Assembly: GCA_049999805.1 (NCBI GenBank)
Contig: JBNGIO010005723.1
Coordinates: 1 to 64,000, forward strand
Reading direction: 5' to 3'
From: Folioceros fuciformis
Lineage: Eukaryota
DNA length: 64,000 nucleotides
In this document: piece by piece, positions 15,273 to 64,000 of the stretch
Layout of the letters: each line of letters begins with the position of its first letter
Position numbering within the stretch: position 1 is the first letter of the stretch
Notes under the pieces: generated by a model
Databases searched by the model: none
Told to the model about the DNA's origin: nothing
Seen by the model: only the letters and a program-made list of their open reading frames with translations
Made by a program: the position numbers and the translations under genes

Positions 15273-15929
15273 TGTTCCTCTCAGTGCTAGCATTGTCATG
15301 TGTTTAGCATTGTCATGTGTTGTGTTCTTATAGCTACTTATACTGTTAACTATGTTTTATCATGACCATGGGTACACACACATCATATATGTGCATGCCC
15401 AACATTATCAGCTACTCTGGGTCCCCTACCATCATGCATGATAGCTGTCACTTCGTACAGGCAACATATTTGTGATGACAATGTCGTGTTCATGTTCATC
15501 TTTTCTATGCTAACCATAGTCACTCACTGCCAAAGAACTACATTTGTTCATGGCCCTTAACCACAACCCCCTTGCCCAAAGTTGGAGCACACGAAAAAAG
15601 TTCTTTGAGGGGCATATGAACTATTTTAAATGGAGGTGCGATTTGGATGCACTCTATCCTCATATGCATCATTTTTTTATCTTGAGAATGAGAATTGGGC
15701 CTACTCATAGATGGATTGAGTTGGCTGAAAAGTAGGTGACCTTTGTACATTCGATTACTGTATCTTCAGTGAGACCCCATCTGAGCTCACGACGAGACTT
15801 CGAGAAGAGTTTGAGAAGCTTCAAACAGAATGGGACCAAAGCACGCAGGAGACTAAGGCCACCCTCTCGGACCTCTAGAAGGATAGTGTGCCTAGAGGGA
15901 GGAGAAGATGAAATTGGGCTTGCAACTTA

Positions 15930-16196: not shown

Positions 16197-16329
16197 GGTG
16201 AATCCGGCTCCCAACGACCTGCAGCTGCGTAAAGTCGAACGGAGCTCCCGCCACAGGTTTGATCTCAACGGTAAGAATGAGCTTTTCATTCACTGGGTTG
16301 ATGTGGTCCCCGAATATCTGTATCTCGTG
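16197..16329 (-). pseudogene. Isolated fragment of an aldose 1-epimerase (galactose mutarotase) coding exon
   Basis: HEIQIFGDHINPVNEKLILTVEIKPVAGAPFDFTQLQVVGSRIH resembles the H-x-L/I-QI...TPVD..LIPTGEI.PV.GTPFDF....IGSRI segment of the family. Confidence 0.8.
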
Positions 16330-16782
16330 CAGTGGTGTTCCACTTGTTTGGAGAAATGATGGATGGTGTACAGCCATCCGGCATCACATTCCTGTGTGTA
16401 CTAACAGCTTGCGGTCATTGAGGCCTGATGAAGGAAGGACAAGAGTACTTCTCAGCTATGAGCAGAGACTACGGCATCAATCCAACAGCAGAGCGCTACA
16501 CATGCATAGTGGATCTCTTGGGTCGTGCAGGCCAATTGTACGAAGCGAAGCACTAGCTGTGATAAGCAGTGTGCCTGTGCCGCCTAATGCTCCAGTTTGG
16601 CACACTCTACTGGGTGCTTGTCGAAAGTGGAGCAACATTGAGGTCGGACTACGCGCCTTTCATGAAGCAGTGAAGCTGGACAAATAGGACGCCGCAGCAT
16701 ATGTGCTAATGTCGGGCATCTACACCGGCTCCCAGATGTGGGAGTAGGCGCATGACTTGCAGGCAAGGAAGATATAGTCAGG
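16327..16782 (+). pseudogene. Recent partial duplicate of the 3' end (P2-L2-S2-E1-E2) of the PPR gene at 18834-21677
   Basis: Near-identical to ~21130-21582 but with TGA/TAG stops and small indels, including a CGAAG duplication. Confidence 0.93.
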
Positions 16783-16960: not shown

Positions 16961-18833
16961 TCGTCCCACGTGAAAAGCAGTGTACCCGATGCTGCTGTAG
17001 TGCCTGCCTCCGTGGTGAGATTTGAAGGGGAGTTTTGTTTGCAGGAATAACCATGTGGCTGATAGGGAGGATCGGACCTTGACCAAAGGGCTTAATCGTA
17101 CAGCCGGTCGGAGCAAGAGCTTGGGTAGTTGTTAATGACCAATAAGATCGGTGATTGTCATTGCTTTGTTGGTTACTAGCGTGAATGTATATTCCTTCTT
17201 TTCACCAATGACTTGTAGTGCAGTTTTGTGTGGCAGTTTCAGTGAGGGCTGAACAAAACAATGCGCGAGGACAGCGATACTGATGTTGATATCACCATCC
17301 CCGTGGTGGTATTGCCCCAAGATGTTGAATGCAGGTGGTATGTACCTGCACTATCGTAGATTTATTTGCTGCGGCCGCAGCAGTATCGTGTTCCTACTCT
17401 TTATCCTGTGTTTACAATGAGAGCTCTTCTTCTCTCCCCAACTCAGCCAACCGGACTTTTTGGATGTGCGGAATGTTTCTCTTGCTTTCTGACGGTTGGT
17501 ACTACCCAGAAGGCTTGAACTTCTTGGTCTGCATGGTGGAGTGTAAAAGAAACGAAGATTAAAGGTGTGCTGATGGGCTGCAAGGCCAACTTGTATCAGA
17601 TAGCCCACCTGCTTGACTTACCTGCTATGCATGGCATGAATAGAGGCAACCCAATCGCAAGGAGCGGGGCTGCTGTCATCTGAATTGGAGTACTCTAAGG
17701 GACTACTCCCACTGCATAAGACGGACATCTCATAAACGATGCGGGAAGGCCTGCATGCCTCCTTTAGAAGGAAATGATCGAAATGCAGCACTAGAAACTC
17801 CTCAACGAAAACCAAGACCTCCTCTACGTTAGGATGTCTGAATGGGATGTCTTGGTCACGGCAGCTTTCAGACTTGGCGTGTCATATTATTTAAGCAGAT
17901 TCATTGATTGCTGCATGCACCTATACACCATGAGCTGTTTCTGTTCTGTGGTTCTTATCATCAGGTTTGGTGTGCTTGGTGTGCCGCCAGTGAAAGCATA
18001 ATCTGGAAGGCGTGCAGTCCCCGCACCGTCAACAGCGGTCATGGCCTGAGCTCAGTTCGAAGGTGCAGCTGTTGCCCTTCACCATGCGGCCTTCCTCAAG
18101 GGTGGAACGGTACAGGCACTGAAACATGCCTTCTTCAGGCAGGAGCTTGGCAATACTATCGACGCTTCTCGCTTGCGAGTGTCCCAGACGGAGGAGGGAG
18201 TCAGATCGTTTGGGAGTCAACCGCTACGACGGTGGAAGCACCATGTAGATATGACGCGTGGAGGTAGACTACCTGATTCAGATCAGCAAGACCACCCTCC
18301 ACAACACCCAATGACAAATGTTCTGTTGCCACGCCAGCTAAGGCAATGCATGAGAACTTATCCCGCATGTGCTGAACACTCCTGGAGTCTTCAGCACAAA
18401 AGCAACTTGCAGTGGAACTCATCCTACAAAGGAAAAGATAGTTTTCCAAACTCAGGACGAACGCAAGGAATGTTTAGCACTACAGCATTGGAAGATGGAA
18501 GCAAGCCTTTAGCCAATCTGGAGGAAAGGTACCTCTTCCTGAAGCTGAAAATCAACGAAAGGAGTTTCTGCTTGAACAACTTCCCTTCGGCGAGTCATGG
18601 CTGCCTGTCGCCCTGTACTTCATTCCTACCAAGGACAGCACGGCCTCTCGTGGCAGCAGCTTTTTTGGATCCAACAACTGCATATCGCTGGGACGAGACG
18701 TGACCTAGGAAGAGCTATTGCGCGGATGGGCTGGGAGGTCGAGTACTTCCGATAGGCTGACGGGTCGCGGTGCATGTTTATCCAGCTAGGACGTGCTGGA
18801 TGATCATGACCCTTGTAGGCCTGCAGGATACGA

Positions 18834-43644: not shown

Positions 43645-44877
43645 TGGTATTACACTCATGCTCTCTCTTCCTCACCTATCCTCTCTCATCCACCAATTAC
43701 ATCTCGTGTACAGTACCTCTCCTATTGGTTTGCAGGTACATATGTCCGTACTGTATGTCGTCCACACCGACCCCGGATGCGACCAGCAAGCAGCGAGCGA
43801 AAAGGCTGGAAAGCACCAACGTAGGTACATACATACATATATATGTAGCTGCTTCAGCTTTAATTGAACACGAAATTGCTAAAATTGAAGTACCTGCCTG
43901 GACGACTGTAGCTGGGGACACTTGGGTCTCACTAATATGAACTCAGATGCAGAAACCAACATTACAAAGCTACAAGCGAAGCGATGGTTTGGTTGTTATA
44001 CCAAGATAATCTACTACTCTAACATCAATGTCGAATAAAGAGAGTTAGAACTACTAATCTTGAGATGAAGACTAGACATAGAATCCACTCGCTTGAATAC
44101 TTACTTAATAGATGGATGGAGAAAAAAAACATGTAGCATGACCAGGGCCCAAGACCAGGTAAGGCAAGCCTTGGGCTGATGGAAACAACGCTTTTTTATC
44201 AAGAAACGGAGCACGAACGCAAGCACTTTCTGAGACGTGCCAACTTTGTAACCAAAGAAGAGGAAAATTATTTAAAGGATGTCATGATATCGGGATAGGG
44301 AACGCAATTTAGCAAACGTTGGTGACAAACGAGAAGGATGTTCACTGTACATATGCATTATTGTACGTGTCCAGGAGAGAACAGATGAACCAAAGCCATC
44401 CATTCACTTTCTCCTGCTGTGCCTGCAGCTCCCACGGACAAGCTAGGGCCCACGTTGGGACGACCATGAGAAATAATCGTGGATTCCTACACCCTACACT
44501 TCCAGACTCGGTCTCGGACTTGGCTTTCGAAAGATAAAAACAAAAAGCTGCGGGACAACAGGGATACACATCTGGTGCTGGTCCGAGGCAGCGCAAGACC
44601 AAACGGCTGCCACAGCCGGGCTCCATTTTCAATACATGAGATCCCAAGTGTCAGCGCGGGGCATGTGCGCAGACATGATTCACTGGCAACTTTTTAGGAT
44701 GCAAAAAGCTGTGCTCCTCAACACGTGTGCAGACGACTTCCCGATCTTCGCGTGGATCGGAGCTTTCAGCCGCTGCCCGGGAGGCCTTCTCAGGTCTTGG
44801 CGTCTGCTGCAGTGATCTTTTAAGGAAATGCGTGTGGACAGTCAGGCCAACAACAGCCAATAAATCTCTACACTTTG

Positions 44878-47800
44878 TCACTTCGGCTTGCTCATATCTC
44901 GCCGCACTGTCAGTTTTTCTCTTCTCGCGCCGTCTCCATTCCCAGCCTCAGAGGGTTCGAATTGGGGGCCCTCCATCTTGTGTTCTGCAGCCTCTGATTG
45001 CTGTTCGCCACCAGCTGTCGACCATGTAGATGTCTTCGGTAATTTATCTTCAAAGTTCTTTGGAAAATTCAGCACTGCAGCAGCTCCGAGCTCTTTGAAC
45101 GCTGCTTTGTCATAGGCGTGGGCTGCTTCTATCGCAGACTTGAAGTTTCCACAATAAAAAGGCAGGTGATTCCTGTCGTTGTAAAACATTGCATGATACA
45201 AACCACCAGTCTCGCAGACTCCATAATACTCACCTGTCCCCCCTGACAAAGGATGATAACAACTTGCCGACCTAGGCAGCAGTTCCTCAGGAGACAGCTT
45301 CAGGTTAGGAGACTCGCCAAATTGCCAGAACCAGAGCTGATCATACACTCTAGCAGCCTCCTCCGCGGTCACAAAGGATCCCAGATAAGTGTGCCGTTTG
45401 GCGAGAGGGTTATAATATATACACTTAAACTTCATCCCATTAGAGTATACACCTTTGTAGTGCCGATGAAGTGTCTTCCCTGGCTTCCTTTGCCGACGTT
45501 TTCTCTCATCATCTGCAACTGGTACATCGGCGGGCTCCACCAAGGGTTTCGTCTTCATCACAAAAGGGCTGTCATCTGCACTGATTGATCTTGTTTTAAC
45601 CTCACGATCCTCGTCATATGCTTCATCATTTTGCACCTCAAACTTTTGGGATAACTTACTGCCACTACAAACTTTTCCCTGCTCCTCTTCGGCCAGTTTA
45701 CTTTGATGCCCCAACGCCTTCACATTAGAGGCAGATGATGGCCGCCACTGACGCTCGTCAGATGCATGTCCTACAGCAACCTTCTTCCGGGTCTTCACTC
45801 TCTGCTTCTTTGCTGCAGGAACATTTAGACCATATCGCTCCGGAAAATTCAACCGCTTTATGTTTCCGGATCGTTTAAACACCATGTCATCATAAGCCTT
45901 GGCTGCTTCTACTGCCGAGTCAAAGGTTCCCACATATATATGCTGTTTCGTTGCCGCCAAATACATTTTTGACTTGAAACGCCCTCCGGCCGTGGCCTGA
46001 ACACCAATGTACGGACATCTTCTCGGAGGTCTTTTCAAGTCTGACCTTCCAGCTACATCTTTTCCAGAATCAGGTCCCCCTCCCACGTGCCTTTGGTTCT
46101 TGATTGAACTTGTGCTCTGCAATCGTTTCTCCAAACCTGTGCAGGAGTCGGTCTGTGCCCTTGTACCTATTCCCTCAGCTTGCTCATCGCTGTCACCAGC
46201 TGGACTCCTGACTGAAATACCTGCATCATCCTTAGGGCCATGATTCAGCCTACTCTGACCTAGCATGGCTCTCCTTTTAGATGTTGTCTTGTAGATGCGG
46301 CCGTATTCAGACTTCAAGTCTTGGAACATGTATTCATCCACTGTGTCAGTTGACAATCCAGATGAAATGCGTCGTCGGCGAAATTCATCTCCAGGCATAT
46401 GTTCCCCTTGAAGAGGTTGGTTGAACTCCTGACCATCCTCTGAAAGGAGCTCATCACCACTGCTTGACAGCGAGTTATCGTGATGTGAAATAGAGCCACG
46501 CTTTCTTTTCAACCTGGATCGATCAGCAGATCTGGAGAATCTCTTCAGCCTAGCATAATCATATCCAGAGTCACTTGCATCTGAAGCAAAATCCTCGGAA
46601 TCTGCCTCCTCAGATGCAGTATAGTCATCACTGAAGTTACTATGATCACTCTGGGAAACCTGTTGAGGTAGGTCTGCATAAGAAATGGAGTGTTCATACT
46701 GGGAAGCCTCTTGAGGTGGGACTGCATAAGGAACAGAGTGATAGTCCTGTGATATTTCTTGAGGTGGGACTGCATAAGGAACGGAGTCACCACCACCACC
46801 ACCACCACCACCACCGGGTGCTGAGTTCAAATCCACATGACCTGACTTTCTTTTCAACCAATGAGCGATTTTAACAGCTCGATCTCTAGCTCCACTTCCT
46901 TTGTTTGCCTTCAACGCAGCAACAGGCTTATGACTCTTCCTGGAAGCCAATGGAATGGGACCCTTGTCCTTTTGGGCAGAGGCTGCCCACTCGGGAAAGT
47001 TAAGGTGTGATGTGGCACCACACTGAACTGCTAGCTGATCCCGTGCACATGCAGCTTCAAGGTCAGTCTCAAACATACCCACGTACACCTTCCTCTTCTC
47101 ATTCCTGTCGTAGAAACTTGCCTCATATCGTCCTGTGCTCCACTTCTTGGTCACACCGAAGAGCTTATGATCACCACCACTAGTTTTTGGAACAGCTAAT
47201 GGATTAGCCCGCCCCGAGTCTGATGCCGATCGGCCACCAGTAGCTTGAACAACTAGACTTTTATCAGCCGACCCATGGGATGTCTTTATATCTCTCGGGA
47301 TGTGTCCAGGTGTGGGAGTTCTCACAAGGTCTGGATCACCCAGTGAGAAGTCTGCAGCAGCACTAGGCACCTTCTTCCTATGCCGCCGTCTAGCAGGGCC
47401 AGTTTCTGGTTCACTGACCGGTTTTTGGTTCGACATACCGCCTTTGCCTGTGTGAGTTCGTGACTTCTCGCCACTCTGGCCTGGAGCTTCATCAGACTTT
47501 TGATGCGCTGCGGTGCCCGGAGAGGCCCCTTTCTGCTTGTTGCTGTCAACAATAACATTTGCAATCACCCGATCTCTTGCAGTGACTGCCTCTTCCCTTG
47601 TGTCAAATCTCCCAACGTAGATCATCTTCTTTGTCAGCTTATTATACACGCTGGCTTCATACCTACCAGTATTGATTCTTCTTACACCAAGAGACCTACT
47701 TTCCTGAACATACTTTTCCACTGATGAGCAATCAATGGGCTTTGACTGTCTGCTTGTGCTCCGTGAAGTATTCGCACCTGCAAGTTGATGAGGAGGTTTC

Positions 47801-49254
47801 ACAAGGCTCTGATGTTGAGTTCGTGAGATCCCTGGTGTTGGTGTATGGAGTTCCCTCCCCTCAATACCCATTTCTGTGTCCATTTCAGTCTCAGTAGATG
47901 TATCGGGACGAGCTTCCAGCACTCGTTCACCAGCACTACCTGGAACTGGCTCAACAGTCATAGCAGAGGCAGCAGGGGCGGCTGGCTTGACTGCAGAGAC
48001 TTGTTCACCCGATACATCCTGCGTTTCACTGTGAGGCCAAGGTAATGATGGTTCCGCATCCTCAGATCCTTCACCAAAGTTTGTGCTTGCACCTGTCCCA
48101 CGAATTAAGCGAGCAGCATCATCGTAAGCACTTGCGGCAAGGGCCTCTGTATCAAAGGTGCCTAACCACACACGACCTTCAGGGGTACATATCTCTGCTC
48201 CATATGTACCCCAGGGACGCCTCCGCACACCAACAAACTTAGAAAGCCCACGCTGAGCAGACCCTCGCTTCTTTGAGGAAGAGTCGTTTCCACAATCCTT
48301 GCTCAGACAGCCAGACCCTGAAAGATCGATTCGCTCCATGTCCACCTGCTGCCATTTTACAGCTCTCGCTACGCGAGACACAGAACACAGCCCTACTCTA
48401 GTCAGTTCCACAGGTCCGACATCAATTCCACCATCAACAGTAACCCCAGCATGTTCCTGGCCAGCAGAGTCAGCCATAAGAAACGGGGGAGATGCTGAGA
48501 GAGGTAAACTCTCCAGAAACTTGGACGACTTTCTACTTCCTTTTCTTTCAGCAGTAAATGCCGACGGGCTACTATTCTGGCCGGCATCCCCTGTACGGTG
48601 ATTGGAAGAATCTGGACACACAAATTCTCTCTTAAACCGCTTGGAAGGCCTGCAATCGACCCTGAGCCCCTTGTCGGAGACAAAATCACCTGGTGCAGAA
48701 TCCGACAAGGAGCTTCTTTCCATAATATCCACATGGTGAGCAACCGAGGCTGCCATCACAACAACAGAAAACTCTCCCAGTGTCGACGACTGTTTCATGA
48801 GCTGCTTCCGTTTCAAACCTGCAAAATTCTCCTTCATGGTTGAGTGCATCAAACAAAACCTGCACCAGGTTTCCACCACAAGGACCATGTTAACAATTGG
48901 TTCAAGTCCAGGAATCATGTGTGCCACTAACTTTTTGCAAGCCACATTGCACACGAGAGGTGACAGTTTGGGACAGAACCTGGGATCTCTAGTCTTGAGG
49001 TAGACCGAGAACTGGCACCGCACATTCGTCAAATTTTCCACATGGTCGCACTGCTTGTAGGGAGCCTCGTGGTCTTCCAGTATGTGCCATATACAGAACC
49101 GATACCCATGTACACGATAGTGATTACATTTCTGCTTTGCAGACTCACAGAAGCCACTGCCATAACATCGGGGCTTCTCCATTAACTTGCGCTCATATCT
49201 TGGAGTCCCGGATTGAGACATCGCTGGGACACCTTCTCTCACACCTACAGCCAT
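44878..49254 (-). CDS. Large nuclear protein: N-terminal C3Hc3H-type zinc finger plus six AP2/ERF-like domains
   Basis: [30 protein letters not shown]...RC...PR|FCLMH after removing in-frame intron 48860-48979; AP2-like units at ~48076-48240, 47565-47695, 46993-47163, 45841-46011, 45295-45459, 45061-45228; start and 3' end approximate. Confidence 0.85.
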
Positions 49255-49906
49255 GGAATGCAAACCTTTCAAGACCCGAGGCTGATCAGCTCGTCGTAAC
49301 ACCAATTGAACTCCTACCTTCTCCCGCCAGGGGCGGCGACAAGCCCAGCGAAGCCACCTTGCTTTACAAGCTTCCGGGAACCTGCTCTCCAAGGAACTCC
49401 CGGCTTCTTTCACAGGCAAAATCAGGATCTAATGCGTTAAGTCCTGGATTCAAGTCTCCTCCGAGCCCGCACATCTTTTTGTGGAGCCGAGACCTAGTCC
49501 CCACAGTCTTGAGCTACCCATCGTTCCTTCCAAACGCATTTCTGCGTGGCGATCATCGACACATCATATTTCACGCCTCTTAAGGTCGTGGATCAAGTCG
49601 CTAACACAGTTCACCTCAAGGACAACCTCCAGCACCGCTCTTAGACACGAGAGCCGATCAAGTCAGAGACGTACACGCACGCCCATTGTGGCTCGTCAAG
49701 CAAGATTGAATTACACGAGCGTTACGTGAATAAACAATGTCATTCCAGACTTACTATAATCTGGGCTAAAGAGAAATTACTAAGGAGTTAACGTATCAGG
49801 CACTGTTTGCTTTGAATTCCGCATTCCCGGGATTCGACAAACTGAAGAGACCCAAGACAGGGAGGCCAATACTGTTCTCGCATCTTTCTCTTTGTTGGCG
49901 CCAGGC

Positions 49907-52240
49907 TCATCCTTCTAGATCGGAAGACAGGCCAGCTGCATACAAGTTTCCAGTTGCGAGGTAGGCTTCCCGTTCGGATGGAACTAGCTTCACATCTCCT
50001 GTTCTGACATAGTTTTGGTAGCACATGAGGGCAAAGGAGATCGCCAACGCAATGCAGTAGAATCCGAAAGCGTAGAACTGGTGTTGGATGGGCAGCTTGA
50101 GAGATGCCTGCACCGCATGCCAAATTTTGTGACGTATGTTGACTAGGAGCACATCTGGGAGCGCAAAAGACACAGAATGATTTGAGGGAGAGGAACATGA
50201 AGGGACTTACAACAACTGCCTGGAGTAGAGACTGGATGATCAGGCCTGCAACTGAGTTGAGACTGAAGAGGAGAATGAATTGGCCATTTGTGAGAGAGCG
50301 CGCACATTGCACGTAGACAAGGCACAGGAGCAGTTGATTGATTCCTACAGCGATCACATAGGTGGGGTATGCAATGGTGAGGGTACTGCTGGAACCCATA
50401 ATGATGCAGAGGAGTCCCACGATCCCAGATCCGATGATGTACACAATGCCCCCTGTCTGGGCTGCAATCTTTGAAACTTGAACGGCTGCTAAAGCTGCAA
50501 TGCATGCAGCTCCCTGGGCTGCTGCAATGACATGGCCGTTGAAGTTAGAGAGTGGATCGATCCCATCAAACAAGCTTGTGCCATAGTTGGGGATCATAGC
50601 AAACCCAGCCGTTCCGAATGCCCACCTGTTCCAAAACACCAAAGTGATGCGATTTCAGTGGCTTGTAACAGCGACGTAGCGGACGACGTACAAGACCAAA
50701 CTATGAACAGGGTCTACCAAAGAGAGAGCAGACAGAGACCCTTGCTTCCCCAGGTTTCCCTCACAATGTTCAGGAAGCCCTGCAGCATGAAACACGATGT
50801 TCAGTAGACCCTCAGGGCTAACCAGTCATGACAACTAGGTGACTGCAAACATAGTCACATGCTGTGAGTCAAATTCATCAGTATACCTGACGAGAGGAGC
50901 ACAGGTTGGGGTTAAAGCGACCATTGCTTTGGAAATCTTGTGGTTCCCTTGGAAGTAGGAAGGAGGTCAAACAAGCAATAGATACCTGAAAGGACAGGAG
51001 AGGCGATCAATGAGTGACCACCAACAGCAAAGGCCAGCAAACATAACCCTGCAGCTCGTATATTGTTTGTTTTCTAGTTGACTCACCGAGGCTATGGTGA
51101 TGTATAAACTGCTCACCAATGGAAAGCCCCGATTTATAACCAGTTGCCCTGCAGCAACAACAGGAGTGACTTCGAGTATATGTACGTCGACATAATCCTT
51201 CCCATGGAAAAGTTATACGGGATATCTGGTGCCATTACTGGCAAGCTCCCAGGAGCCTTGCCCATGCAGAATACAACCTACCGATTTCAGCAGCGATTAC
51301 AAACGAGGTGAGGGATGACGCTTGCGAGAAGCTTGTCTGCACATACATGCGAACACCGTACCTGAGACCTTCAGTGACGTGTACCATGCATGAACTGGAT
51401 CTGATATATAGTGACGTATCTTACCAGCAGCTGATAGTCTTCCTCAGCTACCAGCAAAAACAGGTAGGATGAGAAAACCACATCTGAGGCTGTTCCGAGC
51501 CCATACGTAACCTTCAAGAAGAAGTACACGTACATCAGAGAATGGCCATGATGTATCACGTATCCACCCTCTCACCAGGTATCCAGAGAAGCACCTGCAT
51601 GAGCTGCATGGACAGCAAAGATGTGCCCGAAAGCAAGATAACGAATGTTGCTAAGCGTCCCAAAGAACCTGTGGAAGTCATCACATCTACCTTCATCAGG
51701 AGCTCTTACAACGACGCATTTCGGAGAACCAGAAACTTCTCTCCCTCCAACCAGAATGAAAGCATGAGCAATTACGATCCAGCAAACTGCTACTCACCTA
51801 CCAATTATGATGACAGTGCGGTAAGAGAGGATGGAACAAGCCGGGACAGCCAGCAAAGTGAAGCACAGCATTGAGTAGACTCCGACCGGGAAAATATTCC
51901 TGCTAACCTGTCAAACGTCCGCTAGCTCTTCAAACCTCGGCTCACACCAAATCTCAGCTCAGACTAACATTGCAATGCAGTCCAGTCGCATAATTTACCG
52001 GTATGGAGTCCCGCCACCTCTTACCTCATCATTCGTAAATTGCTTATCTCTGGTGAGGTAAGGGACCAGATACGGCTCCGACGGCTCAAATTGCAGACAC
52101 ATTGTGTAGAAGGTGAGCAGCAGAAGCAATTGCCATGGCCCCTCCCTCCAGAAAGACACAATTTCGCTGCAGACTGACATGCTTCTTCGCTCGCCGACCA
52201 CAGCAACCTCACTCACAGCTACGGATTTCCACTCTCCCAT
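49907..52240 (-). CDS. Reduced folate carrier / thiamine transporter (SLC19)-like membrane protein (multi-exon)
   Basis: FYTMCLQFEPSEPYLVPYL...FTNDEV, SLLSMQLMQ|VTYGLGTASDVVFSSYLF, SLVYPVHSLVLYVVRYV, NFNGHVIAAA, FILLFSLNS, LPIQHQFYAFG; many hydrophobic segments. Confidence 0.8.
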
Positions 52241-56026: not shown

Positions 56027-59000
56027 TCAGCCTCGCTTGGCTTTTGGAATGATTTCATTTCCAACCTGAAAGCTGTGCACCAATCCGTCCTTGTCTGTCC
56101 ACCAGCTCTGACCCGGCTGCTTCCTGGCCCTGATTCGCTTTCTCCTTCCCAGTAACTCCTGTGCCTGCTCCCACATCTGGACACCGGTGTACAAGTTGCA
56201 CATCACCACATACGCTGACACATCTTGCTTGTCTATCTTCACTGCTTGCTCAAAAGCATAGCGTCCCACCTCCACGTTGCTCCACTTGCGACACGCACCC
56301 AAGAGTGCATGCCAAACTGCAGAATCAGGCACAACTGGCATTGTTTTAACCAAAGCGAGCGCTTCATCCAGTCGGCCTGCTCGGCCCATAAGGTCTACCA
56401 TGCATGTGTAGTACTCCACCGTGGGTGTCATGGCGACATGTCTGCTCATCGCTTCGAAGAACTCGAGCCCTTCATTCAGTAGCCCCGTGTGACTGCACAC
56501 GTTCAGCACAGCAGCGAACGTGTGGCGATCAGGCTGAATGCCGTCTTGTATCATTCTGATCACCAAGCGAAAGACCTCTACACTGTCTCCTTGATGACTG
56601 TACCCTGCAATTAGTAGATTCCAGGCCACGAGGTGCCTTTGAGGCAATGTTTCGAACACCTGCCGTGCATCAACCATGCTTCCAGACCGTGTGTACATGT
56701 TCATCAGACTCCCGGCTACAAACAGATCGGCTCGAAGTCCTCGTTCTTCAATCTGCGCGTGCAGCTGCCTCCCCAAATGCAAAGCTGCCAGATTTGCACA
56801 GGCCTGCAGAAGACCAACGAAAGTCACAGAAGTGGGTACAGCAATGCCTTCGTTCTGCATACCTCTGTACAGATGAAGGGCTTCCTGGCCCATGCCCTGC
56901 TGGGAATACCCCGCAATTAGGGCAGTCCACGTCACCACATCTTTATCAGCAAGTCCATCAAACACTGCTCGGCCATCTTCCAAGCTGCCACACTTTGCAT
57001 ACATGTTCACCAAACTGCTCCCAACAAACACGTCAGCTTGGAGCCCTCTTTCTCTGATTTGTGCATGAAGCTGCCTCCCCATTTCCAGAGCTTCGGTGCC
57101 CAGACGTGCACATGCCTGCAAGAGGCACACCAGGGTAGCGGAATTCGCCACTGCCATTTCATCCTCTTGCATAGCGCTGAAGAGTTGAAAGGCTTGCTGG
57201 CTCATCCCCCGCTGACAATATCCTGCAATTAGAGCAGTCCATGCCATTGCATCTTTCTGACCAAGTGCATCAAATACACTCTGAGCATCCTCTAGGTTGC
57301 CACACTTTCCATACATGTTTACCAAACTGCTCGCTAGTAACAAATCAGCTTGGTGTCCTCGTTCTCCAATCTGCACGTGGAGCTCCCTCCCCTTCTCTAA
57401 GGCTGGCGTGCCAACACTTGCGCATGCCTTCAGGAGGCACACAAATGTCACAGAATCGGGTTCAGCACCGTCTTGTTGCATATCAGTGTAAACTTGCAGA
57501 GCTTCCAGGCCCATGCCCTGGTGAGAGTACCCTGAGATCATAGCATTCCATGCAACCACGTCCTTTTCAACAAGCCCATCGAACACTCCGTGAGCATCCT
57601 CCAGGCTGCCACATTTTGCATACATGTTCACCAAACTGTTGGCTACAAAGACATCCTTTTCATGTCCATGTTCTCTAATTTGAATATGAAGTTCCTTCCC
57701 CTTTTCCAAGGCTAGGGTGCCGACACTTGCACATGCCTGCAGGAGGCACACAAATGTAACAGAGTTGGGTGCAACAATGCCATCTCGTTGCATTGCGCTG
57801 TAAAGATCAAGAGCTTCCTGCCCCATGCCCTGATAGGAATAACCTGCTATCACGGCACTCCATATCACCACATTTTTATCGGTCAGTCCATCGAACACAC
57901 CCCGAGCATCCTGTAGGCTGCCACATTTTGCATACATGTTCACCAAACTGCTGGCTACAAACACATGGCCCTGAAGCCCTTGATCTGTAATTTGCAAATG
58001 AAGCTGCCTCCCACTCTCCAGAGCTTGGGTGCCAACGCTTGCACATGCCTGCAAGAGGCAAACAAATGTCACGGAATCAGGTAAGACATTGGAATCTTTT
58101 AGCATAACACTATAAAGATAAAGGGCTTCCTGGTTCATGCCGTGCTGGGAATACTGTGTTATCATTGCATTCCACGTTGCGACATCCTTTTGACCAAGTT
58201 CGTCAAACACTCTTTGAGCATCTACCAAGCTTCCACACTTTGCATACATGTTCAACAAACCATTGGCTAAACGCAAATCAGTGGCCTCTCCTCGTTTTCT
58301 GATTTGTATATGGATCTGTTTCCCCTTCTCCAATGCTGGGTTTCCCACACTTGCACATGCCTGTAAGAGGCACAGAAGTGTCACAGAATCAGGTACAACC
58401 ATTCCATCTTTTTGCATGACACTGTAAAGATGAAGGGCTTCCTGACCCATTCCTTGCTGACAATATCCTGAGATCATGCCATTCCAAGTGACCACATCTT
58501 TTCGAGCAAGTCCGTCAAACACTTTGCGGGCATCTTCTAGGTTGCCGCACTTTGCATACATGTTTACCAAACTATTGGCCACAAAAGTGTCGGCTTGGTG
58601 TCCTAGCCCTTTTATCTGCATATGCAAATGCTTACCGTTTTCAAGAGCTGGAGCACCGACACTTGCACACGCCTGGAGGAGGCACACGAAAGTCACAGAA
58701 TTGGGTACAGACATGCCGTCTTTTTGCATGTCGTTGTACAGGCGAAGGGCTTCCTGGCCCATACCCAACCGGGAATATCCTGCGATCAGAGCAGTCCACG
58801 TCACGACATCTTTCTCCCCAAGACCGTCAAACACGCTTTGAGCGTCTTCCAAACTGCCGCACTTTGCGTACATGTCCACGACGCAATTACAGACAAACAA
58901 GTCACTCTGAAACCGGCTGGCCAATACATGGGCATGCACCTCCTGCCCAGACTCCAAATCTGCTCCTTCGCCACAAGCCTGGAGAGCTGCCACAAACACA

Positions 59001-59797
59001 TGCCCATCCGGCTCCACACCTGACCCCCGCATCCGACGATACAGTTTCATAGCCTGCTTATCTTGCCCGTTCTTCACATGGGCACATATGATCGAGGACC
59101 ACATGAAAGCATCTGGTTTGGCCACCAGGGAAAACACATCCATCGCATCTTGCAACCTGCCATGAGAAACATACATTCGCAGGATGTGGTTGCACAGGAA
59201 TGTATCCGACCGATAACCTGCTGCAACCGTGAATGCATGGACCCGCCGACCCAGAACAAGATCCTTCTTCACCATACATTTCTTCAGGACAGTATAAAAA
59301 ACAGACGTGGAAACACAACAGTCTCTCTGCACTAGAAGTCCCAGGGCTTCCACTGCCTGTGTGAGATTGCCTTGATGACATAAAGCGCCGACAGTTTCAG
59401 CCGTGACGACCATTTCATGTCCAGCGGCCCTGGCATCACTCGCCAGGCTGCAGTCAGATTCCCTCGTCGCCACATCTACCGAAAATGGTAACGTCCAGCG
59501 AGGATTTTCGGCGACCGATCCGTGCCCAGTCACACGCCCTCCTTGATGAGCTGCCTTTCTTGCAAATGTGCTTAATCTAGCTGCTTCCTTGTTCGTCAAG
59601 GATCGGTCCCTCAAATTCAGGCGAGCGGGAGCACTTCCTGTAATACCAATTTGCTCGCTCCACCAACACGATCCCCCCAAGGGGTCTGGTGGTCCTTTCC
59701 GTGGATCCACAATCATGCCCCAGACAAGCATGGCGTCTAGGATACGCAGCAAAATTCTCTGCCAAAACCCTACTGCAAGGGTTAAAGGGTTTAACAT
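56027..59797 (-). CDS. PLS-class PPR protein, E+ with truncated WW-type DYW start
   Basis: Long P-L-S array, YYTCMVDLMGRAG, VWHALLGACRKW, KQPGQSWWTDKDGLVHSFQVG then stop; start codon uncertain. Confidence 0.95.
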   Translation of the reverse strand: MLNPLTLAVGFWQRILLRILDAMLVWGMIVDPRKGPPDPLGGSCWWSEQIGITGSAPARLNLRDRSLTNKEAARLSTFARKAAHQGGRVTGHGSVAENPRWTLPFSVDVATRESDCSLASDARAAGHEMVVTAETVGALCHQGNLTQAVEALGLLVQRDCCVSTSVFYTVLKKCMVKKDLVLGRRVHAFTVAAGYRSDTFLCNHILRMYVSHGRLQDAMDVFSLVAKPDAFMWSSIICAHVKNGQDKQAMKLYRRMRGSGVEPDGHVFVAALQACGEGADLESGQEVHAHVLASRFQSDLFVCNCVVDMYAKCGSLEDAQSVFDGLGEKDVVTWTALIAGYSRLGMGQEALRLYNDMQKDGMSVPNSVTFVCLLQACASVGAPALENGKHLHMQIKGLGHQADTFVANSLVNMYAKCGNLEDARKVFDGLARKDVVTWNGMISGYCQQGMGQEALHLYSVMQKDGMVVPDSVTLLCLLQACASVGNPALEKGKQIHIQIRKRGEATDLRLANGLLNMYAKCGSLVDAQRVFDELGQKDVATWNAMITQYSQHGMNQEALYLYSVMLKDSNVLPDSVTFVCLLQACASVGTQALESGRQLHLQITDQGLQGHVFVASSLVNMYAKCGSLQDARGVFDGLTDKNVVIWSAVIAGYSYQGMGQEALDLYSAMQRDGIVAPNSVTFVCLLQACASVGTLALEKGKELHIQIREHGHEKDVFVANSLVNMYAKCGSLEDAHGVFDGLVEKDVVAWNAMISGYSHQGMGLEALQVYTDMQQDGAEPDSVTFVCLLKACASVGTPALEKGRELHVQIGERGHQADLLLASSLVNMYGKCGNLEDAQSVFDALGQKDAMAWTALIAGYCQRGMSQQAFQLFSAMQEDEMAVANSATLVCLLQACARLGTEALEMGRQLHAQIRERGLQADVFVGSSLVNMYAKCGSLEDGRAVFDGLADKDVVTWTALIAGYSQQGMGQEALHLYRGMQNEGIAVPTSVTFVGLLQACANLAALHLGRQLHAQIEERGLRADLFVAGSLMNMYTRSGSMVDARQVFETLPQRHLVAWNLLIAGYSHQGDSVEVFRLVIRMIQDGIQPDRHTFAAVLNVCSHTGLLNEGLEFFEAMSRHVAMTPTVEYYTCMVDLMGRAGRLDEALALVKTMPVVPDSAVWHALLGACRKWSNVEVGRYAFEQAVKIDKQDVSAYVVMCNLYTGVQMWEQAQELLGRRKRIRARKQPGQSWWTDKDGLVHSFQVGNEIIPKAKRG

Positions 59798-59880
59798 GTC
59801 TAGCAACAATCTGGTTTGATATTTTCTTCAGCCTCTGCTAGCCGTCCGGTGATCCAACCACATTTGGCAAGTGAACGGAA

Positions 59881-61406: not shown

Positions 61407-64000
61407 CTACTGAGTTCCATTTTCTTCTTGGCCGATATCAAACGTGTCTAGAGCTACAAATGAGTGTTTTTGTTCTGATTGGGGGGGGATGAAAGTGTCA
61501 TCTCCAACCAAAAAACTGTGTACTATTCCGTCCATGTCGGCCCACCAACTCTGGCCCGGCTGCTTCCAGGCTCTCGCTCTTTTTCTCCTGGCATGCAACG
61601 CCTGGGCGTGCTCCAACTTCTGGGTAGCGGTGAATAAGTTAGACATCAACACATATGCTGCTGCATCTTGCTCGTCCAACTTCACTGCTTTCTGGAAGGC
61701 ATAGCGTCCCATCTCTACGTTGTTCCACTTCCGACAAGCGCCCAACAGAGTGTGCCAGACTGCAGCACTGGGAGGGACCGGCATTGTGCTCACCATATCC
61801 AGAGCCTCATACAGCTGGCCTGCCCGGCCCAGGAGGTCCACCATGCACGTGTAGTGCTCCACACTAGGAGTGATCCCGAATTGCTTGCTCATGGCCGCGA
61901 AGCATTCTCTCCCCTTGTCTACCAGGCCCGTGTGGCTGCAGACAGTGAGCACACTGAGGAAGGTGATGCCGACTGGATCTATGCCAGCTTCTCTCATTTT
62001 CTGCAGCAAATCGAACACCACTCTGCTGTTTCCTTGGCAGCTGTAGCCGGCAATCAAAGCACTCCACGCGACAACATCTCTGTTTGGCAATGCGTCAAAA
62101 ACCTGCTGTGCATCCGCCATGCTGCCGGCCTTGGCGTACATGTTTATCAAGCTACTGGCAACAACGACATCAGCTTGGAGCCCCTGTTCCTCGATCTGTG
62201 CATGTAACTGCCTTCCCACATGCAAGGCTGCCACATTTGCACATGCCTGCAGGAGGGCCAGAAAGGTGACGGAATTGGGCACAGCAATGCGTTCTTGTTG
62301 CATTGCCCGGTAAAGGGAGAGGGCTTCGTGCCCCAGGCCCTGCTGAGCGTATCCTGCTATCATGGCGTTCCATGTTACCACGTCCTTTTCAGCGAGTCTG
62401 TCGAAGGCTCGCTGAGCATCTTCCAAGCTGCCACACTTTGCGTACATGTTTACCAGGCTGCTGCCTACAAACACGTCGGCTTCGTGCCCTTGTTCTCGAA
62501 CCTGCGCATGAAGCTGCTTTCCCGTCTCCAAAGCCGACGTGCCCATGCCTGCACACGCCTGCAGGAGGCAAACAAATGTGACAGAATCGGGCACGGCTAC
62601 GCCTTCGTCTTGCATTGCGCTGTAGACACGAATGGCTTCCTGTCCCATGCTCTGCTTGGAGTATCCTGCGATCATAGCATTCCAGGTAACCACATCCTTC
62701 CGAACAAGGCCGTCGAACACACTCTGCGCATCTTCCAAGCTGCCACACTTTGAATACATGTTCACCAAGCTGTTGGCTACAAACACGTCACTTTGAAGGC
62801 CTCGTTCTCGGATTTGCACATGAAGCTGCTTCCCCTTCTCCAGTGCAGAGGGCCCCAAACCGGCACAGGCCCGCAGGAGGCTTACAAAGGTGATGGAATC
62901 AGGTTCATCGATGCCTTCATCTTGCATGTTGCTGTAAAGGGCGAGCGCTCTGTCGCTCATGCCCTGCTGGGCATACCCGGCTATCATGGCATTCCATGTC
63001 ACCACATCTTTCTGACCCAACCCGTCGAACACTCTCTGAGCATCCTCCACGCTGCCACACTTCGCATACATGTTCACCAAGCTGTTGGTTATGAACACAT
63101 CAGCTTGATGTCCCCGTTCTTTGATTTGAGCATGGAGCTGCTTCCCCATCTCCAAAGCTGGGGTGCCCAAACTTGCACATGCTTGCAGGAGGCAAACAAA
63201 TGTGACAGAGTTGGCTACAGCAATGCCTTCTTCTTGCATACGACTGTAGAGGTTAAGGGCTTCCTCGCCCCTGCCCTGCTGGGAATATCCCGTAATCATG
63301 GAATTCCATGTTGCCACCTCCTTTTCACCTAGGCGGTCAAATACTCTCTGAGCGTCTTCCAAGCTCCCACACTTGGCATACATGTTCACCAAACTGCTGC
63401 CAACACACACATCAGCTTGATGTCCTCCTTGTCTAACTTTCGCATGTATCTGCTTCCCCTTCTCCAGTGCCGTCGGCCCCACACTTGCGCATGCCTGCAA
63501 GAGGCAGACAAATGTGACAGCATCCGGCACGGCAATCCCCTCTTCTTGCATGGCACTGTATAAATGAAGAGCTTCCTGCCCCATGCCCTGATGGGAGTAT
63601 CCTGCTATCATGGCAGTCCACGTCACCACATCTTTGTCACCAAGTTCTTCAAACGCCTTGCGAGCTTCTTCCAAGCTGCCACACTTTGTGTACATGTTCA
63701 CCAAGCTGCTGGCTACAAACTCCTCCGCTTGACTTCCTCGTTCACGAATCTGCATATGAAGCTGTTTTCCCTGCTTCAAAGCAGGAATGCCCACAGTTGC
63801 ACATGCCTGCAGGAGGCATACAAACGTCACCGAATTGGGTACAGCAATGCCTTCATCTTGCATGACACTGTAGAGATGAAGGGCCTGCTGCCCCATGCCC
63901 CGCTGGGAATATCCTGCAATCAGAGCTGTCCAAGTCACCACATCTTTTTGACCAAGTCCGTCAAACACACTCTGGGCATCTTCAAGACTGCCACACTTTG
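61407..64000 (-). CDS. PLS-class PPR protein, E+ with truncated WW-type DYW start; 5' part lies outside the window
   Basis: P-L-S array open to the window edge; HYTCMVDLLGRAG, VWHTLLGACRKW, KQPGQSWWADMDGIVHSFLVGD then a short unrelated tail. Confidence 0.95.
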   Translation of the reverse strand, partial: KCGSLEDAQSVFDGLGQKDVVTWTALIAGYSQRGMGQQALHLYSVMQDEGIAVPNSVTFVCLLQACATVGIPALKQGKQLHMQIRERGSQAEEFVASSLVNMYTKCGSLEEARKAFEELGDKDVVTWTAMIAGYSHQGMGQEALHLYSAMQEEGIAVPDAVTFVCLLQACASVGPTALEKGKQIHAKVRQGGHQADVCVGSSLVNMYAKCGSLEDAQRVFDRLGEKEVATWNSMITGYSQQGRGEEALNLYSRMQEEGIAVANSVTFVCLLQACASLGTPALEMGKQLHAQIKERGHQADVFITNSLVNMYAKCGSVEDAQRVFDGLGQKDVVTWNAMIAGYAQQGMSDRALALYSNMQDEGIDEPDSITFVSLLRACAGLGPSALEKGKQLHVQIRERGLQSDVFVANSLVNMYSKCGSLEDAQSVFDGLVRKDVVTWNAMIAGYSKQSMGQEAIRVYSAMQDEGVAVPDSVTFVCLLQACAGMGTSALETGKQLHAQVREQGHEADVFVGSSLVNMYAKCGSLEDAQRAFDRLAEKDVVTWNAMIAGYAQQGLGHEALSLYRAMQQERIAVPNSVTFLALLQACANVAALHVGRQLHAQIEEQGLQADVVVASSLINMYAKAGSMADAQQVFDALPNRDVVAWSALIAGYSCQGNSRVVFDLLQKMREAGIDPVGITFLSVLTVCSHTGLVDKGRECFAAMSKQFGITPSVEHYTCMVDLLGRAGQLYEALDMVSTMPVPPSAAVWHTLLGACRKWNNVEMGRYAFQKAVKLDEQDAAAYVLMSNLFTATQKLEHAQALHARRKRARAWKQPGQSWWADMDGIVHSFLVGDDTFIPPQSEQKHSFVALDTFDIGQEENGTQ

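What the first reader, a model, noticed from the sequence alone, without database searches (positions are those of the whole stretch)
44878..49254. KANSL2/INO80D-type C3Hc3H zinc finger fused to six AP2 domains
Seen: one ~1,400-aa frame carries an N-terminal C..C..FC..HILED..AP.KQC..RC..FC..H module, completed by splicing 48860-48979. It also carries six AP2-like domains: one ERF-like ([16 protein letters not shown]...VWLGTFDT...AYDDAA...TNF) and five divergent (GV...GRY/F...YVG.F....AA.AYD/RD...LNFP), the last two in tandem, separated by low-complexity linkers with basic patches. Known: land-plant AP2/ERF proteins usually have one or two AP2 domains, higher numbers are mainly reported from algae and apicomplexans, and zf-C3Hc3H occurs in the chromatin-complex subunits KANSL2 and INO80D. 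Inference: a multivalent DNA-binding factor that may tether a chromatin-modifying complex. I do not know this architecture from the literature, and it is the best candidate for an undescribed system here.
Basis: partly seen in the sequence, partly recalled or inferred. Interest (0 to 1): 0.85.

Follow-up and report, generated by a model that had tools for sequence, protein, structure and literature searches.

The report
Zinc-finger protein with six AP2 folds
This is a real, spliced plant gene for a 1,407-residue protein with one KANSL2/INO80D-type zinc finger and six AP2-type folds; it belongs to a little-known family of non-flowering land plants that was catalogued in 2019 and whose function nobody has tested.

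Summary
One minus-strand gene encodes a zf-C3Hc3H finger and six AP2-like units.

- **Transcript:** A 5,036-nt contig, identical to the window, bridges the whole gene. It skips the predicted 120-nt intron (48860-48979) and a second 73-nt intron (49245-49317).
- **Start codon:** The CDS starts at 49221 and gives 1,407 aa.
- **Domains:** Pfam finds the finger (38.8 bits, cut-off 27) and AP2 (75.5 bits). Only unit 1 passes the cut-off alone. Units 2-6 are supported by weak Pfam hits, profile comparison (88-98%) and predicted three-strand-plus-helix folds whose best PDB matches are AP2 domains.
- **Selection:** The units are 321 of 351 residues identical to the closest relative, against 360 of 970 outside them.
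- **Already in print:** A 2019 Taxus paper describes the architecture as a subgroup with three AP2 domains plus zf-C3Hc3H, with or without B3 and Agenet. A 2024 pine survey lists a B3-plus-three-AP2 protein that may belong. Homologues occur in mosses, liverworts, a lycophyte, ferns and Taxus.
- **Added here:** The AP2-like unit count is four to six in bryophytes and the lycophyte, not three. Only unit 1 keeps ERF-type DNA-contact residues. The chromatin-tethering idea is untested.

The parts
44483..49711 (-). Span bridged by one 5,036-nt contig of run X1, identical to the window, with two skipped stretches
   Evidence: table 8: record 1 has pieces 44483-48856, 48977-49242 and 49316-49711, with 0 other letters and 0 gaps. 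Contigs do not show true RNA ends.
44878..49221 (-). Coding sequence, 1,407 codons plus the stop at 44878-44880, interrupted by intron 2
   Evidence: One search gives the longest ORF of the spliced form. One search gives the frame.
49245..49317 (-).
   Evidence: table 5 (X1 skips 73; X2 has a similar joint that skips 88 with 12 other letters between). One search gives the intron ends.
48860..48979 (-). Intron 2 (120 nt, GT..AG, in frame, no stop), inside the zinc finger
   Evidence: table 5 (X1 and X2 each skip 120). Searches give the ends. One search shows the finger is complete only after splicing.
48844..49149 (-). zf-C3Hc3H finger (C-x6-C-x10-C-x2-H, then C-x9-C-x13-C-x2-H), split by intron 2
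   Evidence: Pfam PF13891, 38.8 bits, cut-off 27. (8 of 8 ligands invariant in 12 of 12 sequences).
48748..48777 (-). Family-specific hydrophobic motif just after the finger (GEFS...AA type)
   Evidence: found in 18 of 169 session proteins, all of them family members.
48388..48420 (-). Family-specific motif ([11 protein letters not shown] type)
   Evidence: 14 of 169 session proteins, all family members.
48067..48243 (-). AP2 unit 1, ERF-like
   Evidence: 40.3 bits, above cut-off. (ERF096 5wx9 E 5.4e-14, AtERF1 1gcc E 2.5e-12). (6 of 7 ERF contact positions kept).
47539..47697 (-). AP2 unit 2, divergent, found only in the window and its closest relative P0002
   Evidence: E 5.6e-5. (hhalign 88.1% against unit-1 profile, 0.1% reversed). 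(three strands plus helix, block pLDDT 82-91). (WRI1 alignment spans both units). (sister to the unit-3 clade, 96/86).
46987..47166 (-). AP2 unit 3, divergent, AP2/ANT-like 'GRYEA' type
   Evidence: E 0.0089. (94.7%). (pLDDT 84-96). (AtERF1 Z 8.6, rmsd 2.5, 60 aligned, model 182-244). (orthologues in Riccia, Diphasiastrum and two mosses, 97/82).
46267..46293 (-). Family-specific motif (YKTTSKRRA type)
   Evidence: 24 of 169 session proteins, all family members, ferns included.
45835..46014 (-). AP2 unit 4, divergent
   Evidence: E 0.00081. (98.2%). (pLDDT 82-90). (TEM1 Z 10.7; AtERF1 Z 10.2, rmsd 1.8, 62 aligned, model 6-67).
45283..45462 (-). AP2 unit 5, divergent, the most widely kept unit after unit 1
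   Evidence: E 0.037. (97.1%). (three strands plus helix, pLDDT 70-80). (clade 94/94 that includes ferns). (two AP2 stretches pass in the three longest fern proteins).
45055..45231 (-). AP2 unit 6, most divergent, net acidic, found only in the window and P0002
   Evidence: E 0.0095, helix half of the profile only. (92.8%, reversed control 8.0%). (three strands plus helix, pLDDT 66-78). (0 of 7 ERF contacts, net charge -1).

Best explanation
The locus is an expressed, intact gene of a non-flowering land plant. It encodes a member of the AP2/ERF subgroup first listed in 2019, the TcA3Bz1 / Marchantia PTQ32953.1 type.

**Shown:**
- The protein has 1,407 residues.
- It carries one N-terminal eight-ligand zf-C3Hc3H finger.
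- It carries six units predicted to fold as three strands plus a helix, the AP2 fold.
- The units are separated by linkers of roughly 100 to 330 residues that the models leave unstructured. Unit 6 is the exception and follows unit 5 after 17 residues.
- Several short family-specific motifs are present.

**Inferred:**
- It is a nuclear, sequence-specific DNA-binding regulator.
- Unit 1 anchors it on a GCC-box-like site, because it keeps ERF-type base contacts.
- The basic divergent units 2-5 add further, different DNA contacts, so the protein reads composite or spaced sites.
- The acidic unit 6, the finger and the short motifs are more likely protein-contact surfaces.
For: **One spliced gene**
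- One contig of run X1, identical to the window, bridges 44483-49711 and skips two GT..AG stretches.
- A related species (run X2, about 93% identical) skips the same 120-nt intron and has a similar joint at the 5' one.

**Frame under selection**
- The indel rows printed for X2 against the window form 6 events inside the CDS. All are multiples of three (table 4).
- Of the 25 differences printed between 45055 and 45474, 24 are at third codon positions. This is my count, table 3, where 258 further rows were not shown.

**Domains**
- Pfam finds AP2 and zf-C3Hc3H above their cut-offs.
- AP2 is the best family for 6 of 6 units scanned alone.
- hhalign of each divergent unit class against the ERF-like class gives 88.1, 94.7, 98.2, 97.1 and 92.8%. 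Reversed controls give 0.1 to 8.0%.
- AlphaFold models give strand-strand-strand-helix for all five divergent units.
- The nine best Foldseek PDB matches of both models are all AP2 domains: WRI1, AtERF1, TEM1 and ERF96.
- VIA-align gives Z 10.2-10.7 for unit 4 and Z 8.6 for unit 3.

**Units conserved, linkers not**
- Against P0002, 321 of 351 unit residues are identical, compared with 360 of 970 outside the units.

**Family**
- 7 of 7 long top hits of the N-terminal search carry zf-C3Hc3H plus AP2.
- They come from Physcomitrium, Marchantia, Ceratopteris, Adiantum and Diphasiastrum; a partial Taxus protein was also among the hits but was not scanned against Pfam. Ceratodon and Riccia add two more species.
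- Units group by position, not by species.

**Unit 1**
- It keeps 6 of 7 positions that contact DNA in AtERF1. The list of contact residues is recalled, not taken from a call.

**Basic patches**
- Basic stretches sit directly before units 4 and 5.
Against: - No DNA binding, nuclear location or target was tested here or in any paper I found.
- Units 4, 5 and 6 keep 0 of 7 ERF-type contact residues. Unit 2 keeps 1 and unit 3 keeps 1, plus conservative Arg-to-Lys changes.
- Unit 6 is net acidic overall (-1) and in its sheet half (-2).
- Units 2-6 each fall below Pfam's cut-off when scanned alone.
- The structure models rest on shallow alignments of 6 and 7 rows.
- For units 5 and 6 no AP2 row with their own range was listed by VIA-align. 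The rows for 270-318 were dsRBD-like at Z about 4.
- The runs are only guessed to be RNA. A processed retrocopy could in principle give the same joints.
Confidence: 0.6

Rival explanations
1. Only unit 1 binds DNA, perhaps with units 2-3. The other AP2 folds have been re-used as protein-protein or structural modules, so the protein is a scaffold anchored by a single ERF-type domain rather than a multivalent DNA reader.
For: - Units 4-6 keep 0 of 7 ERF-type contact residues and unit 6 is net acidic.
- They are still almost invariant against P0002: 59 of 60, 59 of 60 and 46 of 59 residues. So they are constrained for something.
- The two most degenerate unit classes in liverworts and mosses score only 23.9% and 36.8% against the ERF-like profile.
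Against: - AP2 domains of other subfamilies bind DNA with other residues (general knowledge, recalled). Loss of ERF contacts therefore does not show loss of binding.
- Units 2-5 have net positive sheet halves, +2 to +5.
- Basic arms sit directly before units 4 and 5.
Confidence: 0.3
2. One reading: the zf-C3Hc3H finger docks an NSL-type or INO80-type chromatin complex, and the AP2 array brings that complex to specific sites.
For: - The nearest named non-AP2 relatives of the finger are KANSL2-like proteins of dictyostelids and a mollusc, and INO80D-like proteins of amphioxus and a mite (E 6e-8 to 2.4e-5).
- Liverwort members also carry an Agenet domain. Agenet is a Tudor-like domain of the kind that reads histone marks (general knowledge, recalled).
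- PMC4588387 suggests the finger may serve protein contacts.
Against: - No partner is known for this finger in any protein. The same passage says experimental evidence is lacking.
- NSL2 and INO80D carry two fingers; this family carries one.
- Similarity to KANSL2 and INO80D is limited to the finger (matched ranges).
Confidence: 0.15
3. The long frame is an artefact: separate neighbouring genes read together, a decaying pseudogene, or a transposon-borne array.
For: Units 2-6 are individually weak in Pfam, and large parts of the frame are low-complexity linker (pLDDT under 50).
Against: - One contig bridges the finger and all six units.
- The frame is kept in a related species, with only in-frame indels and mostly third-position changes.
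- The same order of finger, motifs and units is found in mosses, liverworts and a lycophyte.
- No transposon domain appeared in Pfam.
Confidence: 0.03

Closest known systems
TcA3Bz1-type subgroup of AP2/EREBP proteins (Zhang et al. 2019, PMC6781369): Taxus TcA3Bz1, Ginkgo Gb_05581, Marchantia PTQ32953.1, two Physcomitrium proteins. Possibly also Pinus taeda PITA_21665 (PMC11122039), for which only a B3 and three AP2 domains are reported.
   Same: - zf-C3Hc3H lies N-terminal to several separately evolving AP2 domains.
- The short motifs are shared.
- Units 1, 3, 4 and 5 have positional counterparts in these species; units 1, 3 and 5 form supported clades, while the unit-4 group is unresolved.
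- There is no B3, as reported for the two Physcomitrium members.
   Different: - The window protein has six AP2-like units, where the paper counts three.
- Units 2 and 6 are found only here and in P0002.
- B3 and Agenet are absent.
ERF-type AP2 domain (AtERF1 GCC-box binding domain, PDB 1GCC; ERF96, 5WX9)
   Same: Unit 1 matches with E 2.5e-12 and 5.4e-14, and keeps 6 of 7 DNA-contact positions. Units 3 and 4 superpose on 1GCC with Z 8.6 and Z 10.2.
   Different: ERFs have one AP2 domain and no finger. Here one contact Arg is Cys in unit 1, and the other units lack the contacts.
Double-AP2 proteins of the AP2/ANT/WRI1 type (WRI1 with DNA, PDB 7WQ5)
   Same: WRI1 is the best Foldseek match of both models. 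Its alignments (162 columns and 115 residues) reach across two units. Units 2-3 carry the 'GRYEA' signature that I recall from this subfamily.
   Different: - The WRI1/ANT linker between the two domains is short and conserved. Here the linkers are roughly 100 to 330 residues and not conserved, apart from the 17 residues between units 5 and 6.
- The relative orientation does not superpose (rmsd 11.4-11.6).
KANSL2/NSL2 and INO80D (zf-C3Hc3H, Pfam PF13891)
   Same: The finger family is the same, and these are the nearest named relatives outside the AP2 family.
   Different: - There is one finger instead of two (for NSL2 and INO80D).
- No similarity exists beyond the finger.
- No evidence places this protein in either complex.
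Multi-AP2 proteins of apicomplexans (ApiAP2)
   Same: Several AP2 folds are spread along a long, mostly disordered protein. Papers listed report up to four domains (search listing only).
   Different: The lineage is unrelated, there is no finger, and no unit orthology was seen. The P. falciparum AP2 structure 3IGM appears only at E 1.2-2.0.

Membership tests
AP2/ERF superfamily (Pfam PF00847) | At least one AP2 domain above the curated score | tested here: met
   The whole protein scores 75.5 bits and unit 1 alone scores 40.3 bits, against a cut-off of 33.3.
AP2/ERF superfamily (Pfam PF00847) | Three-stranded sheet packed on one helix, in each claimed unit | tested here: inconclusive
   - Predicted for units 2-6 at block pLDDT 66-96.
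- Explicit AP2 superpositions exist for unit 4 (Z 10.2-10.7) and unit 3 (Z 8.6).
- Unit 2 is covered only through the two-domain WRI1 alignment.
- No AP2 row with its own range was listed for units 5 and 6.
- These are models from 6-7-row alignments, not solved structures.
AP2/ERF superfamily (Pfam PF00847) | ERF-type DNA-contact residues (three Arg, Trp, Glu, Arg, Trp of AtERF1; list recalled) | tested here: inconclusive
   Unit 1 keeps 6 of 7, units 2 and 3 keep 1 of 7 each, and units 4-6 keep 0 of 7. Other AP2 subfamilies use other contacts.
TcA3Bz1-type subgroup (PMC6781369) | zf-C3Hc3H N-terminal to three or more AP2 domains in one protein | tested here: met
   The same arrangement is seen in 7 of 7 long homologues.
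TcA3Bz1-type subgroup (PMC6781369) | Each AP2 repeat groups with the repeat at the same position in other species | tested here: met
   Unit tree: unit 1 clade 100/99, unit 3 clade 97/82, unit 5 clade 94/94. The unit 4 group is unresolved. Only 64 columns were used, so many forks stay open.
TcA3Bz1-type subgroup (PMC6781369) | N-terminal B3 domain (Agenet as well in Marchantia) | tested here: not met
   No B3 or Agenet was found in the frame. The bridging contig adds only a 417-nt leader with short upstream ORFs. The paper reports the same lack for two Physcomitrium members, so this feature is optional within the subgroup.
KANSL2/NSL2 or INO80D | Two zf-C3Hc3H fingers | tested here: not met
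   One finger is present. NSL2 and INO80D have two, according to PMC4588387.
KANSL2/NSL2 or INO80D | Membership of the NSL or INO80 complex | not testable with these tools
   This needs affinity purification.

The most novel reading that the evidence does not exclude
This family is an ancient land-plant regulator, older than the split of bryophytes and vascular plants. No flowering-plant member appeared among the homologues that I named, and the 2019 paper reports it absent from angiosperms. It reads DNA with an array of four to six AP2 folds, of which only the first is ERF-like. It uses its single KANSL2/INO80D-type finger, plus Agenet and B3 in some lineages, to bring an acetyltransferase or remodelling complex to specific sites. 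That would make it a sequence-specific recruiter of a kind not known in plants.
Probability: 0.12. Interest if true: 0.65.

Novelty: new member of a known kind. Interest (0 to 1): 0.38.

Why it matters
**Why the family is little known**
- The family is conserved from liverworts and mosses to ferns and a conifer relative.
- It appears in two gene-family surveys (one firmly, one as a possible pine member) and has no known function.
- It seems to be missing from the flowering plants on which almost all AP2/ERF work is done.

**What this work adds**
- Survey counts of three AP2 domains miss further divergent units that are nevertheless strongly conserved.
- The units are positionally orthologous across land plants.
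- The protein combines them with a finger otherwise known from two chromatin complexes.

**What could be done next**
Marchantia seems to have one copy (only one 90% cluster was seen here), so a knock-out and a binding-site map there could assign a function to both the divergent AP2 units and the zf-C3Hc3H finger. No experimental function is on record for that finger in the passage I read.

Tried and rejected
- **Own genome:** No whole genome is held for this window. Copy number and the organism could not be checked.
- **Organism:** Not determined. The closest protein (P0002, 50% identity) has no name, and no identical protein is in the collection. Neighbouring genes are ordinary plant genes, including three E-type PPR genes. 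I ran no further search on a housekeeping gene.
- **Sequencing runs:** No RNA holder listed. Runs X3 and X4 laid nothing.
- **Solved structures:** A PDB sequence search with the finger exon found nothing at E up to 10. With the whole frame it found only unit 1 relatives.
- **Units 5 and 6 in VIA-align:** It listed no AP2 chain with the range of unit 5 or unit 6. Rows for model 270-318 were dsRBD-like at Z about 4. One domain can fill that list, so this is inconclusive.
- **Unnamed short hits:** The short hits of the N-terminal search (P0014, P0018-P0026) carry no names, so they add nothing on distribution.
- **Earlier notes of this scan:** None for this genome. A word search returned only phage HNH-AP2 endonucleases and one unrelated algal finger protein.
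- **Ideas rejected:** A fusion artefact, a pseudogene and a transposon array (see rival explanations).
- **Not attempted:**
  - A fold of the finger.
  - A complex prediction, because no partner sequence from this organism is at hand.
- **Supplementary files:** They are closed, so I could not check that P0010 and P0162 are the Pp3c identifiers named in PMC6781369.
Full report
**What is in the sequence**

On the minus strand a stop-to-stop frame of 1,516 codons runs from 49428 to 44878. The window is about 50% G+C. Its other long frames are ordinary plant genes:
- three PPR proteins with E motifs
- PNO1
- a class IV aminotransferase
- a pseudouridine synthase
- a folate-carrier-like membrane protein
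- a GCIP-like protein

**Gene model**

Run X1 holds a 5,036-nt contig with no difference from the window. It covers 44483-49711 and skips two stretches.
- Both have GT..AG ends on the minus strand.

Run X2 comes from another study and another organism label. Its largest piece has 218 other letters and 30 gaps over 3,217 bases, about 93% identity. It skips the same 120 nt and has a similar joint at the 5' intron, where 88 nt are skipped and 12 other letters lie between.

The runs are only guessed to be RNA. Canonical intron-shaped joints in two species are what one expects of spliced RNA. A processed retrocopy is the only formal alternative.

In the spliced form the long frame starts at the ATG at 49221 and encodes 1,407 residues. 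The contig carries 417 nt before the start, with several short upstream ORFs, and 395 nt after the stop. Contigs do not show true RNA ends.

**The frame is under selection**

- The indel rows printed for X2 against the window form 6 events inside the CDS. All add up to multiples of three (table 4).
- Of the 25 single-letter differences printed between 45055 and 45474 (units 5-6), 24 fall at third codon positions. This is my count, table 3. That table shows 40 rows and leaves out 258.

**The finger**

- Pfam finds zf-C3Hc3H (PF13891) at E 1.2e-9 and 38.8 bits, against a cut-off of 27.
- After splicing, the eight ligands align with 11 homologues and are invariant in 12 of 12 sequences. They are arranged as C-x6-C-x10-C-x2-H, then C-x9-C-x13-C-x2-H.
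- Without the splice the last His is displaced by 40 residues. This supports the intron independently of the contigs.
- A full HMMER search of 1.84 billion representatives used the N-terminal 335 residues. It gave 136 hits at E up to 0.001.
- The top hits are AP2-bearing plant proteins.
- The next hits that carry names are KANSL2-like proteins of three dictyostelids, NSL2 of a mussel, and INO80D-like proteins of amphioxus and a mite.
- No solved structure was found by sequence.

**The six AP2 units**

| Unit | Pfam E, scanned alone | hhalign vs ERF-like class | Reversed control |
|---|---|---|---|
| 1 | 4e-10 (40.3 bits, above the 33.3 cut-off) | reference class | - |
| 2 | 5.6e-5 | 88.1% | 0.1% |
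| 3 | 0.0089 | 94.7% | 1.0% |
| 4 | 0.00081 | 98.2% | 0.6% |
| 5 | 0.037 | 97.1% | 0.2% |
| 6 | 0.0095 | 92.8% | 8.0% |

- AP2 is the best Pfam family for all six units.
- Unit 1 matches ERF096, AtERF1, TEM1 and WRI1 in the PDB at E 5.4e-14 to 7.9e-9.
- The ERF-like class used in the profile comparison had 12 rows.

AlphaFold models were made for units 4-6 (7-row alignment) and units 2-3 (6-row alignment).
- Each of the five units is predicted as strand-strand-strand-helix.
- Block pLDDT is 82-91 for unit 2, 84-96 for unit 3, 82-90 for unit 4, 70-80 for unit 5 and 66-78 for unit 6.
- The linkers fall below pLDDT 50.
- The nine best Foldseek PDB matches of both models are all AP2 domains.

VIA-align gave these per-unit results:
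- Unit 4 matches TEM1 at Z 10.7 and AtERF1 at Z 10.2 (rmsd 1.8, 62 aligned).
- Unit 3 matches AtERF1 at Z 8.6 (rmsd 2.5, 60 aligned).
- A WRI1 alignment of 115 residues spans units 2 and 3.
- No AP2 row with the range of unit 5 or unit 6 was listed. The structural support for those two rests on predicted topology and the profile comparison.

**Conservation**

Against the closest relative, P0002 (unnamed, 1,313 aa, N-terminus cut at the intron), identical residues per unit are as follows:

| Region | Identical residues |
|---|---|
| Unit 1 | 54 of 59 |
| Unit 2 | 45 of 53 |
| Unit 3 | 58 of 60 |
| Unit 4 | 59 of 60 |
| Unit 5 | 59 of 60 |
| Unit 6 | 46 of 59 |
| All units | 321 of 351 |
| Outside the units | 360 of 970 |

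Three short motifs outside the domains occur only in family members among the 169 proteins fetched. They are GEFS..AA after the finger, IGP....RVGL, and [10 protein letters not shown] fourth motif, of the IAQWF.K type, follows unit 3 in the mosses, liverworts and the lycophyte, and is altered in the window protein.

**The family**

- Seven of seven long top hits carry zf-C3Hc3H plus AP2. Four of the seven also carry B3, and the Marchantia protein also carries Agenet.
- Named sources are Physcomitrium patens, Ceratodon purpureus, Marchantia polymorpha, Riccia sorocarpa, Diphasiastrum complanatum, Ceratopteris richardii, two Adiantum species and Taxus chinensis. The Taxus protein is partial and was not scanned against Pfam.
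- I built an HMM from the window's six units, so the window's own hits are by construction. It finds the following unit counts:

| Protein | AP2-like units found |
|---|---|
| P0002 | 6 |
| Riccia | 6 (2 weak) |
| Marchantia | 5 (2 weak) |
| The longer Physcomitrium protein | 5 (1 weak) |
| Ceratodon | 5 (1 weak) |
| Diphasiastrum | 4 |
| Ferns | 2 or 1 |

In a tree of 45 units (64 columns, many forks open), units group by position:
- Unit 1 forms a clade at 100/99.
- Unit 3 forms a clade at 97/82.
- Unit 5 forms a clade at 94/94 that includes ferns.
- Unit 2 is sister to the unit 3 clade (96/86) and occurs only in the window and P0002.
- Unit 6 also occurs only in those two and is not placed.

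The array is therefore old. This lineage has two units not seen in the other species.

**Literature**

- A search for 'zf-C3Hc3H' with 'AP2' finds one paper, PMC6781369. I read its passages.
  - B3 is present in Taxus, Ginkgo and Marchantia, and Agenet in Marchantia.
  - Two Physcomitrium members have the finger but no B3.
  - The paper states that function is unknown and that the subgroup is absent from angiosperms.
- PTQ32953.1, named there, is in the cluster of my hit P0016.
- A search for six identifiers of these genes finds only that paper.
- 'zf-C3Hc3H' alone occurs in four papers.
- PMC11122039 lists one Pinus taeda protein with an N-terminal B3 and three AP2 domains (passages). No finger is reported for it.
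- PMC4588387 notes that NSL2 and INO80D carry two such fingers and that evidence for any function of the domain is lacking (passage).
- Searches for 'four/five/six AP2 domains' return apicomplexan papers and plant surveys, none on this family (listing only).

**How it most likely works**

*Shown:* one protein with a zinc finger, six AP2-type folds under strong constraint, long unconstrained linkers, and basic stretches next to units 4 and 5.

*Inferred:* it is a nuclear DNA-binding regulator.
- Unit 1 keeps 6 of 7 positions that contact DNA in AtERF1 (list recalled), with one Arg replaced by Cys. It is the likely anchor on a GCC-like site.
- Units 2-5 have lost most of these residues. Unit 2 and unit 3 keep 1 of 7 each, and units 4-5 keep none.
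- Units 2-5 still have net positive sheet halves (+2 to +5). They may bind DNA in another manner, as other AP2 subfamilies do (general knowledge, recalled).
- Unit 6 keeps none of the contacts and is acidic. It may serve protein contacts.
- Whether the finger binds DNA or a partner cannot be told from sequence.

**Verdict**

The claim of an undescribed architecture fails. This is a new member of a family known only from catalogues. Two modest additions come out of the work:
- There are more AP2 folds than had been counted.
- There is a clear split between one ERF-like unit and several constrained units that lack ERF-type contacts.

Noticed in passing
window 18819-21677 (+), 56027-59827 (-), 61407-63998 (-, runs off the window): Three long, apparently intronless PPR genes that end in an E motif and show no DYW domain in the frames read. 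Pfam gives PPR_2 at E 4.5e-122 and 4e-141, and E_motif at about E 4e-10, for the first two. The third was recognised by eye.
   Followed up: partly
window 16202-16687 (+): A short frame repeats the C-terminal end of the PPR gene at 18819-21677 almost word for word. It is probably a truncated duplicate or pseudogene copy.
   Followed up: no
window about 14860-15300: The window's run of N (130 in all) sits inside a trinucleotide repeat that reads as long Ser/Thr or His/Val/Ile runs in all three minus-strand frames. This is an assembly gap in a microsatellite.
   Followed up: no
window 49788-50654 (-): The gene directly upstream of the AP2 gene, on the same strand, encodes the C-terminal part of a reduced-folate-carrier-like membrane protein (Pfam PF01770, E 1.3e-16). 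A separate X1 contig covers 49738-50000.
   Followed up: partly
window 8527-10059 (-) and 6800-7935 (-): A 510-codon frame has a partial match to aromatic amino acid lyase (PF00221, E 1.7e-12, profile 186-299 only). It lies next to frames that look by eye like exons of a histidyl-tRNA synthetase. The relation between the two was not examined.
   Followed up: no
spliced leader of the AP2 gene, window 49222-49711 (-): The 417-nt leader carried by the contig holds seven upstream ATGs with short ORFs of 3 to 36 codons. This hints at translational control.
   Followed up: no
P0004 (Lolium multiflorum, 1,036 aa): A grass protein with seven Pfam AP2 stretches and no finger turned up in both word-based searches. 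It may be a tandem ERF cluster fused by annotation, or a true multi-AP2 protein.
   Followed up: no
PDB matches of both models: Several Toxoplasma gondii mitoribosome proteins (9i05, 9hqv, 9g6k chains) appear just below the plant AP2 structures at Z 5.0-5.8. This suggests AP2-like folds inside that ribosome.
   Followed up: no
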